DNA of 40,794 bases from a phage, in sequence record PZ683264.1; one strand, written 5' to 3'. Shown here in pieces: positions 23,937-38,312 of the stretch. Every line of letters starts with the position of its first letter. Position 1 is the first letter of the stretch. The position numbers and the translations under genes are program-made. The notes below the pieces were generated by a model. That model did not search any database and had not been told where the DNA came from. It was given only the letters and a program-made list of their open reading frames with translations.

Positions 23937-23957
23937 ATTTAGCTCCTTTATTTATCA

Positions 23958-23969
23958 TATTTATAAATA
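23958..23969. promoter_or_regulatory. Divergent overlapping late promoters for gene 26 (minus) and gene 51 (plus)
   Basis: Palindromic TATTTATAAATA core: plus-strand TATAAATA at 23962-23969 and minus-strand TATAAATA at 23958-23965, each about 20 nt from its start codon. Confidence 0.6.
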
Positions 23970-23986
23970 GAATAAAAGGAGCATCT

Positions 23987-30260: not shown

Positions 30261-30545
30261 ACGGAATGAAATGAAAGCAGCAACTGAAGCAACTAAACCG
30301 TCTTCAATATAAACTTCAATTTTTACAGGAGCTTCTGACTCAAATTTACCTGTTACTACACCCTGAAAAATACTTTCAGTCTGTTCTGGCTTTGAAAAAT
30401 TTTCAGAAGGAAAAATTCCAAACTTTTTATCTGTTCCGAAAATTTTGATAAATTCATCATAAACTGCTTCATTAAAAGCGTTATCAGCAGGAATAACGCC
30501 TTCAACTACAAGTTCTTGACCTAAAAAGCGCAAAGAAGATTTCAT
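30255..30545 (-). CDS. Hypothetical protein (alt.-3 position)
   Basis: 96 aa ORF with ATG start; early-promoter-like motif (GTTTAC, ~17-18 nt, TATAGT) upstream on the minus strand. Confidence 0.6.
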   Translation of the reverse strand: MKSSLRFLGQELVVEGVIPADNAFNEAVYDEFIKIFGTDKKFGIFPSENFSKPEQTESIFQGVVTGKFESEAPVKIEVYIEDGLVASVAAFISFRK

Positions 30546-30576
30546 TTTGTGTTCCTCATGTTATGTCAGTAAGACT

Positions 30577-30606
30577 ACTATAACACAACACGAGGGACTT
30601 GTAAAC
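30577..30606 (-). promoter_or_regulatory. Early promoter-like motif upstream of the 30255..30545 ORF
   Basis: Minus strand GTTTAC, 17-18 nt, TATAGT. Confidence 0.35.
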
Positions 30607-36322: not shown

Positions 36323-36530
36323 TTTCAATGCTTATAATTTCAACATCAGCCCAATGACCGTAACCCGGTAAACGGTCTTCAATAGATAATCCGCCATCAT
36401 ATTTAAGCATTTTAATTGTCATAATATATGGCTCTAAATGGTCTTCTGTGAGAGGAGAAACGTCAGTCACACGATAAGTAACTTCAACCATTTCCGTACC
36501 TAATAATTTCTGAATTAATTTCTTAAACAT
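36315..36530 (-). CDS. Hypothetical protein (30.3' position)
   Basis: 71 aa ORF, ATG start. Confidence 0.55.
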   Translation of the reverse strand: MFKKLIQKLLGTEMVEVTYRVTDVSPLTEDHLEPYIMTIKMLKYDGGLSIEDRLPGYGHWADVEIISIENV

Positions 36531-36534
36531 TTTA

Positions 36535-36822
36535 TTAGAACCTCATCTGAAAACCGTGCGATTTAACATTACCGCCGCCAATATCAGAAATGTTAATTTC
36601 ACGCGCAATTGAAGGGTCAATGTCAATTTCGCGATTGAGTTTAGTGATAGCTAAAGTATCACGCCCATTTACTGTACGGAATTCTAAAGGACAAACCACA
36701 TCAACGTAGTTTTTAATCGATTCGCTAGTAGGTTGCAAATGTGCAGGAAGATCTTTAGGCGCCTTTGAGAAAACTACTTCGCAGAAGTTTTTACGGGTAT
36801 CAAAATAAGTGGTCATAAACAT
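36535..36822 (-). CDS. Hypothetical protein (30.x family)
   Basis: 95 aa ORF, ATG start with GAGGA Shine-Dalgarno. Confidence 0.6.
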   Translation of the reverse strand: MFMTTYFDTRKNFCEVVFSKAPKDLPAHLQPTSESIKNYVDVVCPLEFRTVNGRDTLAITKLNREIDIDPSIAREINISDIGGGNVKSHGFQMRF

Positions 36823-36837
36823 AATAATTTCCTCAGT

Positions 36838-36860
36838 GAGGGGCTGAAGCCCCTCATTTT
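36838..36860. terminator. Intergenic GC hairpin with a T-run on the plus strand (possible antisense terminator or RNA processing site)
   Basis: gaggggc-tgaa-gcccctc followed on the plus strand by attttatttt; lies between two minus-strand ORFs. Confidence 0.35.
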
Positions 36861-36863
36861 ATT

Positions 36864-37229
36864 TTAAATATCAAATTCGTTAAGAACTACATCAAAGATT
36901 GCTTCGAGATGTTCAGGTTTAGCTCTGTTACTCAGAATATGACGAATCCAAGTTTTAACTAGAAGCTTGCGATTAGCACCATTCCAGCAAGGATGAGTCC
37001 CTAAATCACGTTGACGAAAATCATCATCCAAAGCAATTTTGAAGTTGGAACCTTCCATCGTGATTGAAACCGTGATACCGTTTTCAAATCGCATATAAAC
37101 GTAGTTAGGAGTCATATACTGATCGATTTCGCATACTGATCCATTTTGATGTTTCCAAAGGCAAATAGTATCAATAGAACCTGCAATACCATTAGAAACA
37201 TATTTACGTTCAAAGTTAATGTAGTTCAT
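36864..37229 (-). CDS. Hypothetical protein (30.x family)
   Basis: Track start 37241 is TTG; ATG at 37229 with GGAGA Shine-Dalgarno gives 121 aa; early-promoter-like motif upstream. Confidence 0.6.
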   Translation of the reverse strand: MNYINFERKYVSNGIAGSIDTICLWKHQNGSVCEIDQYMTPNYVYMRFENGITVSITMEGSNFKIALDDDFRQRDLGTHPCWNGANRKLLVKTWIRHILSNRAKPEHLEAIFDVVLNEFDI

Positions 37230-37265
37230 TTTATTCTCCAAGATGTTTAATTGTGGTACAGGTAT

Positions 37266-37294
37266 ATAATATCATATCCTGTACCAAAGTAAAC
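37266..37294 (-). promoter_or_regulatory. Early (sigma70-like) promoter upstream of the 36864..37229 ORF
   Basis: Minus strand GTTTAC, 17 nt, TATTAT; the -10 lies inside an 8-bp inverted repeat ggtacagg/cctgtacc. Confidence 0.45.
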
Positions 37295-37296
37295 AA

Positions 37297-37629
37297 TTAT
37301 TTTACTACTTTCCAATGCTGCATGTCAAGTTTACCAACTTTTTTCATCTTCTCAATTAAGCGTTCGGCACGTTGGCGAGCTGTAACATAATGCCATTCGC
37401 CTAATTCATTTTGTTCAATTTTTCCAACGATTACTGTATTCAATTCATAAATCCAACCAGTAAAGAAATTATGAACTTGAATTGTAAAGGTGAAATCTGT
37501 TCCCATACCTTCTGTTGTTTCTACTTCAATGATATCACCTTCAACTGCCATTAAGAACCACATAGTTTCATCATATTTACCATTGAAGCATTTAGTTTTA
37601 ACTGCAGCGTTCAGATTAATCGTTTTCAT
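37297..37629 (-). CDS. Hypothetical protein (30.x family)
   Basis: 110 aa ORF, ATG with AGGAGA Shine-Dalgarno; early-promoter-like motif and terminator upstream. Confidence 0.6.
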   Translation of the reverse strand: MKTINLNAAVKTKCFNGKYDETMWFLMAVEGDIIEVETTEGMGTDFTFTIQVHNFFTGWIYELNTVIVGKIEQNELGEWHYVTARQRAERLIEKMKKVGKLDMQHWKVVK

Positions 37630-37657
37630 TTTATTCTCCTTTGTTTGTGTAAGATAA

Positions 37658-37686
37658 TACTATCACAAAGGAGCTATACTGTAAAC
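37658..37686 (-). promoter_or_regulatory. Early promoter-like motif upstream of the 37297..37629 ORF
   Basis: Minus strand GTTTAC, 17-18 nt, TAGTAT/ATAGTA; directly downstream of a terminator hairpin. Confidence 0.4.
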
Positions 37687-37699
37687 AACTTTGTGCAAT

Positions 37700-37734
37700 C
37701 TTTGGAAAATAAAAAAGGACTCCCGAAGGAGTCC
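37700..37734 (-). terminator. Rho-independent terminator downstream of the basic-protein ORF
   Basis: ggactcc-cgaa-ggagtcc hairpin followed on the minus strand by TTTTTTATTTT. Confidence 0.7.
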
Positions 37735-37739
37735 TCAAC

Positions 37740-37958
37740 TTATGCTTTCTGCTTACCAAAACGAGAAGCATCATCTCGAAGAACCGCACGTGCTCGGCGC
37801 ATGATCTTCTCAACAGTTTGATTGATACGAGAGTTCGACCCACGCTTGTAACCAGCGCGTTTAGAATCACCAACTTTCTTTTCAACTGCTTTCTTTGCTT
37901 TAGCTTGTTTTGCCATTATAAATTCTCTTTTAAATGAAAATGCAGGACTTATTGGCAT
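37740..37958 (-). CDS. Small highly basic protein (Lys/Arg-rich), possible nucleic-acid binder
   Basis: 72 aa per track; internal start at MAKQAKAKKAVEKK (37916) also possible; followed by a terminator hairpin; my hand count of this stretch disagreed with the track frame by 1 nt. Confidence 0.5.
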   Translation of the reverse strand: MPISPAFSFKREFIMAKQAKAKKAVEKKVGDSKRAGYKRGSNSRINQTVEKIMRRARAVLRDDASRFGKQKA

Positions 37959-38312
37959 TGCCTGCGAAAGCCCTCAAGGGGTACTTAGGTTTTGAATATT
38001 TAACGACAGGATAACCATAAACCCGTCATCATACCTTATAGCTCTTATCTGTTGCACACCGTTAGCTTAAAGGTTCCGGGTTCGATTTCTCGAGGATAAG
38101 ATATATACTGATGGATATATAGGCCTTGAGGCGTACTCCCGATTGGCCATCACCTCGGGGTAGCATGCACTTGCCGCTATAAGAATAACATTCAAGAGGT
38201 ACACCATAAAACTGCCGGGGTCTTAAAACTATAATGATTCGCAAATCATTAATCAGACAGTTCGATGGCTCCTCGATTTTAGCTCACACTAAGGCAGTGA
38301 ATCTCCAATAAA
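37959..38312. other. ORF-poor ~350-bp intergenic region with several predicted stem-loops
   Basis: No ATG-initiated ORF of 60 aa or more on either strand; long-range complementarity cctcaagg (about 37971) / ccttgagg (about 38124), tcttatc (about 38043) / gataaga (about 38095), and hairpin aatgatt-cgcaa-atcatt (about 38233-38254). Confidence 0.5.

What the first reader, a model, noticed from the sequence alone, without database searches (positions are those of the whole stretch)
37255..37286. Inverted repeat enclosing the -10 element of an early promoter
ggtacagg ... cctgtacc (8-bp arms, 16-nt spacer tatataatatcatat) encloses the TATTAT -10 hexamer of a GTTTAC-N17-TATTAT early promoter upstream of the 36864..37229 ORF. 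As DNA it could be an operator for a dimeric repressor; as RNA from upstream readthrough it would fold into a hairpin that could act as a processing or stability element. Neighbouring early promoter candidates lack such a palindrome.
Basis: seen in the sequence. Interest (0 to 1): 0.35.

Follow-up and report, generated by a model that had tools for sequence, protein, structure and literature searches.

The report
Stem-loop built into a T4 early promoter
The palindrome is real and conserved, but it is best read as an RNA hairpin laid over the early promoter of phage T4 gene 30.7, a member of a published class of promoter/stem-loop cassettes in T4-like phages, and not as a repressor binding site.

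Summary
The window is a T4-like phage, about 97% identical to T4. The finding lies between genes 30.8 and 30.7, which are on the minus strand.

- **Observation:** the repeat is real but slightly misdescribed. The arms are 9 bp (TGGTACAGG/CCTGTACCA, 37254-37262 and 37278-37286) and the spacer is 15 nt. It encloses the TATTAT -10 of a GTTTAC-N17-TATTAT promoter.
- **Chance:** one such repeat is not significant alone. About 5 repeats with arms of 9 bp or more are expected per shuffled window.
- **Conservation:** the helix is kept across T4-like genera, with four compensatory pair changes and sense-strand G·U pairs.
- **Neighbours:** All three consensus early promoters in the window have one. Across 42 T4 sites, spacer-to-downstream pairing is far stronger than in controls.
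- **Mechanism:** the 5' arm lies upstream of the predicted start site, so the hairpin exists only in RNA read through from upstream. It does not cover the 30.7 ribosome binding site and has no U-tract.
- **Best reading:** a promoter-early stem-loop (PeSL)-type cassette acting as an intercistronic RNA barrier or insulator.
- **Operator reading:** not supported. The palindrome is unique, and pairing rather than sequence is conserved.

It is a new member of a known kind, of modest interest.

The parts
37289..37294 (-). -35 element GTTTAC of the gene 30.7 early promoter. It starts 2 nt after the 30.8 stop codon.
   Evidence: Sequence; promoter scans; invariant or near-invariant in relatives.
37278..37286 (-). 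5' arm of the hairpin (UGGUACAGG). It lies inside the -35/-10 spacer, so it is upstream of the promoter's own start site.
   Evidence: covariation with the 3' arm.
37263..37277 (-). Loop of 15 nt. It holds the TGn motif (37274-37272) and the -10 hexamer TATTAT (37271-37266). In the window the loop bases can add 5 more pairs, but these are not conserved.
   Evidence: The loop flanks vary in relatives while the arms do not.
37254..37262 (-). 3' arm of the hairpin (CCUGUACCA). The predicted start site of the 30.7 promoter (about 37259, 7 nt after the -10) falls inside it.
   Evidence: The start site is inferred from standard sigma-70 spacing and was not mapped here.
37244..37249 (-). 3' half of an outer 6-bp helix (UAAACA) that pairs with UGUUUA at 37295-37290, which overlaps the -35 box.
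   Evidence: (I10).
37227..37239 (-). GGAGAAUAAAAUG: the Shine-Dalgarno sequence, a match to the 11-nt RegB/S1 cleavage consensus GGAGAAUAAAA, and the 30.7 start codon. It stays single-stranded in read-through RNA.
   Evidence: Sequence; unpaired probabilities 0.65-0.95; consensus from PMC1702504; RegB cutting of the T4 30.7 Shine-Dalgarno from PMC9409239.
36864..37229 (-). Gene 30.7, function unknown, the cistron served by this promoter.
   Evidence: (PF06919).
37297..37629 (-). Gene 30.8. Its transcripts read into the hairpin, and its stop codon is at 37297-37299.
   Evidence: PF06019.
37636..37686 (-). The 30.8 early promoter (GTTTAC-N18-TAGTAT) with a hairpin of the same layout, CUCCUUUGU/ACAAAGGAG. 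Here the 3' arm is the Shine-Dalgarno sequence of 30.8.
   Evidence: (I7), 9, 21, 44: Shine-Dalgarno unpaired probability is 0.0 in read-through RNA and 0.6-0.9 in the promoter's own transcript.
37715..37736 (-). Intrinsic terminator (UUCG tetraloop followed by a U-run) after gene 30.9, just upstream of the 30.8 promoter.
30543..30606 (-). Third consensus early promoter in the window, upstream of the alt.-3 homologue. It has a 13-bp helix with two G·U pairs between the spacer and the Shine-Dalgarno sequence.
   Evidence: T4 counterpart at 123093.

Best explanation
The repeat is the stem of a conserved sense-strand RNA hairpin laid over the strong early promoter of gene 30.7. It is a T-even version of the composite promoter-early stem-loop (PeSL) cassettes described in T4-like phages.

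**Shown**
- The 5' arm sits in the -35/-10 spacer.
- The 3' arm spans the predicted start site.
- The helix is kept across genera by compensatory changes.

**Inferred from this layout**
- RNA started at the 30.7 promoter itself cannot form the hairpin.
- Only transcripts arriving from upstream, mainly from the 30.8 promoter, carry it. In those the hairpin begins 2-10 nt after the 30.8 stop codon.

**Proposed mechanism (inferred, not shown)**
- In read-through RNA the hairpin acts as an intercistronic barrier.
- Most likely it stops 3'-to-5' exonucleases after the RNA is cut downstream, for example by RegB at the exposed GGAGAAUAAAA of the 30.7 ribosome binding site. That would set and stabilise the 3' end of the 30.8 message.
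- It may also dampen read-through into 30.7.

It does not mask the 30.7 ribosome binding site. The sister hairpins at the 30.8 and alt.-3 promoters do mask theirs. The element is not a repressor operator.
For: - **Identity of the locus:** the window is a Tequatrovirus. The flanking genes are 30.8 and 30.7.
- **Stability:** the hairpin folds at -16.1 kcal/mol (core) or -19.6 kcal/mol (extended), z = -5.6.
- **Conservation:** the arms are invariant in the Tequatrovirus, Dhakavirus and Mosigvirus relatives and the other >=88%-identical contigs. The 30.8 coding end, the loop flanks and the leader diverge.
- **Covariation:** with the Marfavirus F48 group and contig L047, 95.6% of cells are paired, against 36-47% when the partners are slid.
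  - Four pairs change on both sides.
  - G·U pairs occur at two positions.
  - The covariation score is 0.389 against 0.218 in shuffles, reached by 0 of 500.
- **Other genera:** upstream of gp30.7 homologues they have hairpins of unrelated sequence but the same layout. Examples are MP1, L062 and Ra_O-1, and L060 against L045, which differ by three compensatory pairs.
- **Link to read-through:** the hairpin is strong (-19.6 to -26 kcal/mol) in all but one (L050, -12.9) of the loci where an ORF abuts the promoter.
  - It is weak in L017 and T2 (L027), where an intrinsic terminator directly precedes the promoter.
  - It is absent in L056 and L058, which have the same terminator arrangement.
- **T4-wide, 42 GTTTAC sites:**
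  - Spacer-to-downstream duplex energy averages -12.25 kcal/mol.
  - Mismatched partners give -8.13 (p = 3e-5).
  - The antisense reading of the same DNA gives -10.18 (p = 5e-4).
  - The upstream segment gives -6.75, farther downstream -8.30 and a shuffled spacer -7.99, each with p < 1e-4.
- **Ribosome binding site:** the 30.7 Shine-Dalgarno stays unpaired in read-through RNA. In T4 it is a documented RegB target (PMC9409239; consensus in PMC1702504).
- **Published class:** PeSLs with stem-loops between -35 and -10 or overlapping the -10 (PMC2839356), and T-even analogues built on T4 early promoters (PMC2839356 Discussion; PMC4122927).
Against: - No RNA ends were mapped here. The start site and the existence of read-through RNA are inferred.
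- In the window itself the palindrome is perfect and folds equally well on both strands. The strand assignment rests on relatives.
- The covariation set is small, 9 rows and about 3 lineages, so events are few.
- The PeSL authors assign an attenuator or terminator role, shown for a GC-rich RB49/phi1 stem-loop, not a decay-barrier role. My data cannot separate the two.
- In T4 as a whole, the link between an upstream terminator and a weak bridging hairpin is only a trend (p = 0.14).
- The 30.8 promoter keeps both a terminator and a hairpin.
- In L058 the 3' arm sequence persists without a partner. It may therefore also be constrained as start-site sequence.
Confidence: 0.6

Rival explanations
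1. Read-through attenuator or terminator, the function published for PeSL stem-loops. The hairpin in nascent RNA pauses or terminates polymerases coming from the 30.8 promoter, so that 30.7 is expressed mainly from its own promoter.
For: - A PeSL stem-loop placed between a promoter and lacZ cut expression about as much as rrnB T1 (PMC2839356).
- The hairpin is weak or absent where a true terminator already precedes the promoter.
- The leader after the hairpin is C/A-rich and G-poor.
Against: - No U-tract follows the stem in the window or in any relative, and the terminator scan does not list it.
- The loop is 15 nt and AT-rich.
- Sister hairpins with 20-35 nt loops that end at the Shine-Dalgarno would be poor pause hairpins.
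- The reporter test was done on a GC-rich RB49/phi1 stem, not a T-even one.
Confidence: 0.2
2. DNA-level element. The palindrome, or the whole conserved promoter cassette, serves recombination (PeSL-mediated module shuffling, cruciform cutting) or helps promoter opening. The RNA fold would be a by-product.
For: - PeSLs are proposed recombination sites, and one RB49 crossover mapped to the stem-loop's loop (PMC2839356).
- T2 lacks 30.8, with the 30.8 promoter joined directly to the 30.7 start.
- The window's palindrome is perfect on both strands.
Against: - G·U pairs make the sense strand systematically more stable than the antisense strand (p = 5e-4).
- The T2 junction lies in the shared GGAGAATAAAATGAA motif, not in the palindrome.
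- Loss of the hairpin behind upstream terminators is not expected for a DNA function.
Confidence: 0.1
3. Operator for a dimeric DNA-binding repressor that shuts off the 30.7 early promoter.
For: - Perfect dyad symmetry centred on the -10.
- The mechanism of T4 early-promoter shut-off is still unknown (PMC2988021).
Against: - The palindrome is unique in the window and in 149 kb of T4.
- Other early promoters have different arm sequences at the same place.
- Relatives change the bases but keep the pairing, including G·U.
- No cognate protein is known.
Confidence: 0.03
4. Translation masking of 30.7 on read-through RNA, as for T4 genes e, soc, 49 and I-TevI.
For: - The same layout, with the 5' arm upstream of the proximal start, is used for masking at the 30.8 and alt.-3 promoters in this window.
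- It is also used upstream of gp30.7 homologues in Moonvirus, Karamvirus and Gelderlandvirus.
- The precedent is reviewed in PMC3014915.
Against: - For this hairpin the stem ends 14 nt before GGAG (4 nt if the outer helix forms).
- The Shine-Dalgarno and AUG have unpaired probabilities of 0.65-0.95 in read-through RNA.
- The T4 30.7 Shine-Dalgarno is cut by RegB, which needs single-stranded RNA (PMC9409239, PMC1702504).
Confidence: 0.04
5. Chance palindrome carried along by conservation of a strong promoter.
For: About 5 repeats of this size are expected per window by chance. The arms are invariant, not covarying, among the closest relatives.
Against: - Compensatory changes in more distant relatives.
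- The same layout with unrelated sequences in other genera.
- A genome-wide excess over four kinds of control.
Confidence: 0.03

Closest known systems
PeSL (promoter-early stem-loop) cassettes of T4-like phages (Arbiol et al. 2010, PMC2839356; Comeau et al. 2014, PMC4122927), including the T-even analogues noted at the internal-protein loci
   Same: [quoted passage not shown]
- AT-rich region, early promoter matching the published PST/T4 consensus TTTACW-N17-TAYWAT, and a stem-loop overlapping the -10.
- Sits among small genes of unknown function.
- Neighbouring gene content differs between close relatives: T2 lacks 30.8.
   Different: - The stem is AT-rich rather than polyG/polyC and has no U-tract.
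- For PST/T4 the 2014 figure legend places the stem-loops just upstream of the promoter, whereas this one bridges the -10.
- Terminator and recombination functions were not tested here.
- I could not check whether this particular cassette is in their figure, because figures are not held.
Promoter-inside-hairpin translational masking of T4 genes e, soc, 49 and I-TevI (reviewed in PMC3014915)
   Same: The 5' arm lies upstream of a proximal promoter's start site. Long transcripts fold and short ones do not, so the RNA's origin decides its structure.
   Different: - The known cases use late promoters and sequester the Shine-Dalgarno or AUG.
- Here the promoter is early and the 30.7 Shine-Dalgarno stays free.
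- The neighbouring 30.8 and alt.-3 promoter hairpins do match the masking design.
Intercistronic stem-loops that block 3' exonucleases and stabilise upstream mRNA segments in E. coli operons, such as REP elements (my own knowledge, not checked here)
   Same: A stable hairpin just after a stop codon, no U-tract, and an endonuclease site (RegB GGAG) a short distance downstream.
   Different: No decay data exist for this element. It is superimposed on a promoter, which REP-type elements are not.
Rho-independent terminator
   Same: A stable stem-loop directly after a coding region.
   Different: No U-run, a 15-nt loop and an AT-rich stem. A canonical terminator is present nearby at 37715-37736 for comparison.

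Membership tests
PeSL (promoter-early stem-loop) cassette | [quoted passage not shown] | tested here: met
   GTTTAC-N17-TATTAT with TGn, preceded by AAAGTAGTAAAATAATT. It matches the PST/T4 PeSL consensus TTTACW-N17-TAYWAT (PMC4122927).
PeSL (promoter-early stem-loop) cassette | Stem-loop superimposed on or next to the promoter. Published positions include between -35 and -10 and overlapping the -10. | tested here: met
   5' arm in the spacer, -10 in the loop, 3' arm at the start site; -19.6 kcal/mol, z = -5.6. Positions as listed in PMC2839356.
PeSL (promoter-early stem-loop) cassette | [quoted passage not shown] | tested here: met
   The 67-nt gap between the 30.8 stop (37297-37299) and the 30.7 ATG (37229) is fully occupied. 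Both genes have unknown function.
PeSL (promoter-early stem-loop) cassette | Repeated at many sites in the genome | tested here: met
   All 3 consensus early promoters in the window have a hairpin of this layout, and about 17 of 42 T4 sites have a strong one.
PeSL (promoter-early stem-loop) cassette | Associated with gene gain, loss or replacement between close relatives | tested here: inconclusive
   T2 lacks 30.8, with the 30.8 promoter fused to the 30.7 ATG, but the junction is in the shared Shine-Dalgarno/ATG motif. Other upstream differences look like divergence of 30.8 itself.
PeSL (promoter-early stem-loop) cassette | The stem-loop attenuates or terminates upstream transcription | not testable with these tools
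   Needs a reporter assay or RNA end mapping. Indirect evidence only: no U-tract, and a weak hairpin where a terminator precedes the promoter.
Palindromic repressor operator | The same or a similar dyad recurs at co-regulated promoters | tested here: not met
   GGTACAGG...CCTGTACC occurs once in the window and once in 149 kb of T4. Other promoters have unrelated arms.
Palindromic repressor operator | Base identity, not pairing, is conserved, with symmetry on both strands | tested here: not met
   Four pairs change on both sides and G·U pairs occur on the sense strand only. The sense strand is more stable than the antisense genome-wide.
Rho-independent terminator | GC-rich stem with a short loop, followed by a U-run | tested here: not met
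   Not listed by the terminator scan. The tail is CACAAUUAAACA, and relatives also lack U-runs.
Shine-Dalgarno-masking hairpin of the e/soc/49/I-TevI type | The 5' arm lies upstream of a proximal promoter's start site | tested here: met
   The 5' arm is at -26 to -18 relative to the predicted start. The start site is inferred.
Shine-Dalgarno-masking hairpin of the e/soc/49/I-TevI type | [quoted passage not shown] | tested here: not met
   Unpaired probability is 0.65-0.95 over GGAGAAUAAAAUG in read-through RNA. The feature is met for the 30.8 and alt.-3 promoters, where it is 0.0.

The most novel reading that the evidence does not exclude
T4-type early promoters may follow a general design rule. 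The otherwise free -35/-10 spacer encodes the 5' arm of an RNA helix whose 3' arm lies at the start site or on the ribosome binding site. Every early cistron's RNA is then marked by where it was started.

- Read-through RNA is folded: insulated, masked from ribosomes, and resistant to RegB.
- Promoter-proximal RNA is open.

This would tie the translation and decay of each small early gene to the firing of its own promoter. It would also explain part of the extra sequence conservation seen in T4 early promoters. The 30.7 hairpin would be one instance of the rule.
Probability: 0.35. Interest if true: 0.55.

Novelty: new member of a known kind. Interest (0 to 1): 0.3.

Why it matters
- **Annotation:** the result stops a conserved palindrome over a -10 box from being read as an operator in T4-like genomes.
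- **Dual constraint:** promoter spacers in these compact phages appear to carry a second, RNA-level constraint.
- **Origin-dependent fate:** the layout lets the phage treat two RNAs covering the same gene differently according to their promoter of origin. This bears on how immediate-early expression is separated from read-through expression, and on which RNAs RegB can cut.
- **Wider link:** the T4-wide statistics connect the published PeSL cassettes with the classic promoter-inside-hairpin control of late genes.
- **Limit:** the individual element at 30.7 is an ordinary member of that class.

Tried and rejected
- **Rfam:** a scan of 36400-38300 at E <= 1 gave only sub-threshold chance hits.
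- **Transcript maps:** searches for a T4 start-site or 3'-end map found nothing usable.
- **Papers not held:** the key locus paper (Truncaite et al. 2006, Virology 344:378), Miller et al. 2003 and Repoila et al. 1994. Their content is cited only through papers that cite them.
- **Metagenome scan:** it added 18 loci but almost no new arm variants.
- **Terminator link in T4:** I tested whether bridging hairpins are weaker where a terminator lies upstream. Only 6 such promoters exist. The trend is in the expected direction but not significant (p = 0.14).
- **RegB link:** I looked by eye for RegB-consensus sites downstream of the hairpins whose 3' arm abuts the -10. The picture was mixed and I did not pursue it.
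- **RNase III site:** rejected, because 9-14 bp stems are shorter than the roughly two helical turns such sites need (my own knowledge).
- **Module boundary at the -35:** considered because megablast homology to Mosigvirus stops there. The upstream genes turned out to be diverged 30.8 homologues with similar C-terminal ends, so this is faster divergence, not replacement.

Full report
**Where we are**

The window is a Tequatrovirus. The 901 bases around the finding are 97% identical to T4 and its close relatives. Comparison with the T4 record places the finding between genes 30.8 and 30.7, both on the minus strand, in the run of small genes upstream of the DNA ligase gene. The downstream ORF 36864-37229 is gp30.7 (Pfam PF06919). 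The upstream ORF 37297-37629 is gp30.8 (PF06019). Neither has a known function.

**The observation**

The repeat is there, with small corrections.
- The perfect arms are 9 bp: TGGTACAGG at 37254-37262 and CCTGTACCA at 37278-37286.
- The spacer is 15 nt.
- On the coding strand the order is 30.8 stop codon, 2 nt, GTTTAC, 17 nt, TATTAT.
- The 5' arm lies inside the spacer. The TGn motif and the -10 lie in the loop. The 3' arm begins 3 nt after the -10.
- With the usual distance of about 7 nt, the promoter's own start site falls inside the 3' arm. This is an inference.

A 9-bp repeat is not rare. The window has 16 with spacers of 3-25 nt, and shuffles give 5.4 +/- 2.2. As RNA the element folds at -19.6 kcal/mol with z = -5.6. 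In this window the other strand folds just as well, because the palindrome is perfect.

**The neighbours**

That is wrong. Only three perfect GTTTAC-N16-18-TAnnnT sites lie on the minus strand of the window, and all three have a helix with this layout.
- **30.8 promoter:** CTCCTTTGT, 20 nt, ACAAAGGAG (37636-37673).
- **alt.-3 promoter (-35 at 30606):** a 13-bp helix with two G·U pairs.
- **Masking at both sites:** in both, the 3' arm is the Shine-Dalgarno sequence. It is fully paired in read-through RNA (unpaired probability 0.0) and open in RNA started at the promoter itself.
- **30.7 hairpin:** it is different. The stem ends 14 nt before GGAG, and the ribosome binding site stays open at 0.65-0.95.

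**Relatives at the same locus**

I collected the region upstream of gp30.7 homologues from IMG/VR, GenBank phages and metagenomes.

*Close relatives.* In the Tequatrovirus, Dhakavirus and Mosigvirus relatives and the other >=88%-identical contigs, the arms GGTACAGG and CCTGTACC are invariant. The end of 30.8, the loop positions beside the -10, and the leader all diverge. One contig (L003) has a C-to-T change that makes a G·U pair on the sense strand.

*More distant relatives with a homologous helix.* The Marfavirus F48 group and contig L047 keep the helix but with changed pairs. On an alignment of nine sequences:
- 95.6% of cells are paired, against 36-47% when the 3' partners are slid by 1-3 columns.
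- Four pairs change on both sides (A-U to G-C, C-G to U-A and A-U, A-U to G-C, U-A to A-U).
- Two pairs show G·U.
- The covariation score is 0.389 against 0.218 in shuffles, reached by 0 of 500.
- The set is small and represents few lineages, so this is supportive rather than overwhelming.

*Other genera.* They have different sequences in the same layout.
- MP1 has ACTGAGGTTA/TAACCTCAGT.
- L062 has a 13-bp perfect helix.
- Ra_O-1 has a 15-pair helix with wobbles.
- Moonvirus, Karamvirus and Gelderlandvirus pair the spacer with the Shine-Dalgarno (CTCCGTTGTAT ... ATACAACGGAG).
- L060 has replaced three inner pairs of that helix in a compensatory way (CTCCGAGGTTT ... AAACCTCGGAG).

*Link to upstream context.* In all but one of the loci where an ORF abuts the promoter, the minimum-energy fold from the -35 to the AUG is this bridging hairpin, at -19.6 to -26 kcal/mol. 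The exception is L050, at -12.9.
- It is weak in L017 and in T2 (L027), where an intrinsic terminator sits directly upstream.
- It is absent in L056 and L058, which have the same arrangement.
- That is what one expects if the structure acts on RNA arriving from upstream.

**T4 as a whole**

On 149 kb of T4 I found 42 minus-strand GTTTAC sites. I compared the best RNA duplex between the -35-plus-spacer segment and the 50 nt after the -10 with several controls.

| Comparison | Mean energy (kcal/mol) | p |
|---|---|---|
| Matched spacer and downstream | -12.25 | - |
| Spacer with another promoter's downstream region | -8.13 | 3e-5 |
| Segment upstream of the -35 | -6.75 | 7e-6 |
| Next 50 nt farther downstream | -8.30 | 7e-5 |
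| Shuffled spacer | -7.99 | 7e-5 |
| Same DNA read on the antisense strand | -10.18 | 5e-4 |

The antisense difference comes from G·U pairs. It points to RNA of the sense strand rather than to duplex DNA symmetry.

About 17 sites have strong hairpins, and they fall into two groups.
- **3' arm abutting the -10:** the promoters upstream of dmd, motB, ipI, ipII, mobD.2, cd.2 and 30.7.
- **3' arm covering the Shine-Dalgarno:** those upstream of motB.2, regB, nrdC.8, ndd.4, denV, alc, alt.-3 and 30.8.

**What it is**

The closest published class is the PeSL, the promoter-early stem-loop of Arbiol et al. and Comeau et al. These are intergenic cassettes in the variable regions of T4-like genomes.
- They combine an AT-rich stretch, an early promoter, a stem-loop, and the downstream Shine-Dalgarno and ATG.
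- In RB49/phi1 the stem-loop is most often between -35 and -10 or overlapping the -10 (PMC2839356).
- The same paper notes T-even analogues built on T4 early promoters, with weaker AT-rich stems.
- The 2014 paper gives TTTACW-N17-TAYWAT as the PST/T4 consensus (PMC4122927). This promoter fits it.

The element meets the structural criteria. The functional criteria, attenuation and recombination, could not be tested. T2 lacks 30.8 and has the 30.8 promoter joined to the 30.7 start. The junction, however, is in the shared GGAGAATAAAATGAA motif, not in the palindrome.

**How it most likely works**

*Shown:* a conserved, covarying, sense-strand helix. Its 5' arm lies upstream of the -10, and therefore of any start site used by this promoter.

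*Inferred:* only read-through RNA carries the hairpin, which begins 2-10 nt after the 30.8 stop codon.

*What it is not:*
- **Not an intrinsic terminator:** it has no U-run, whereas a canonical terminator sits at 37715-37736.
- **Not a mask for 30.7:** the ribosome binding site stays open.

*Context:* the 30.7 ribosome binding site is GGAGAAUAAAA, the consensus RegB/S1 site (PMC1702504). In T4 it is a documented RegB target (PMC9409239).

*Preferred model:* the hairpin is an intercistronic barrier. After cleavage downstream it stops 3' exonucleases and so defines and protects the 30.8 message. It may also dampen read-through.

| Reading | My estimate |
|---|---|
| Any RNA-level role specific to read-through transcripts | about 0.75 |
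| Decay barrier specifically | about 0.35 |
| Attenuation specifically | about 0.2 |
| DNA-level roles (recombination site or aid to promoter opening) | about 0.1 |
| Repressor operator | about 0.03 |

The operator reading scores low for three reasons. The palindrome is unique. Other promoters carry other arms. Evolution has preserved pairing, not bases.

**Verdict**

This is a real, conserved feature. It belongs to a known class, so interest is modest. The wider pattern across T4 early promoters, and its two variants, is the part that deserves follow-up.

Noticed in passing
window 37636-37686 (-): The 30.8 early promoter has a 9-bp helix, CUCCUUUGU/ACAAAGGAG, between its spacer and its own Shine-Dalgarno. 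The ribosome binding site is fully paired in read-through RNA and free in the promoter's own transcript. It should also be RegB-resistant when paired.
   Followed up: yes
window 30543-30606 (-): The early promoter upstream of the alt.-3 homologue has a 13-bp helix with two G·U pairs that sequesters GAGG. Its 5' arm lies in the last codons of the upstream gene, which would allow translational coupling.
   Followed up: partly
window 23942-23982: Palindrome GCTCCTTT-25 nt-AAAGGAGC between divergent genes that I take, from memory, to be baseplate hub genes 26 (minus) and 51 (plus). The arms are the two Shine-Dalgarno sequences. The loop holds TATTTATAAATA, that is, back-to-back late promoters TATAAATA.
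   Followed up: partly
window 36835-36858: GC-rich hairpin GAGGGGCUUCAGCCCCUC between the 30.7 stop and the 30.6 ribosome binding site. The T-run follows it only on the plus (antisense) strand, so on the coding strand it is a stem-loop without a U-tract.
   Followed up: no
window 37715-37736 (-): Canonical intrinsic terminator with a UUCG tetraloop after gene 30.9, 28 nt upstream of the 30.8 promoter's -35. The same motif precedes several T4 early promoters (T4 15288, 58780, 55384).
   Followed up: partly
L027 (phage T2), positions about 590-715: T2 lacks gene 30.8. The 30.8 promoter and hairpin are joined directly to the 30.7 start codon, with the junction inside the shared GGAGAATAAAATGAA motif.
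   Followed up: partly
L029 (T4 65799 and 66498, ipII and ipIII promoters): The hairpin arms GAATTGTGA/TCACAATTC around the -10 resemble lac operator half-sites, and the ipII helix is a perfect 14-bp palindrome. This is probably coincidence.
   Followed up: no
L024 (Klebsiella phage KaOmega, Vequintavirinae): A phage outside the T4-like family carries a gp30.7 homologue at about 30% identity. Its leader also pairs a UUCUCCCU stretch with the Shine-Dalgarno region.
   Followed up: no
L028-L030 (T4 27080, 70696, 55384, 167086, 163673, 146875): Six T4 early promoters share a near-identical cassette running from the -10 (TACTAT) into the downstream leader, TACTATacaactatcaactactgatac..., and these mostly lack a strong bridging hairpin.
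   Followed up: no
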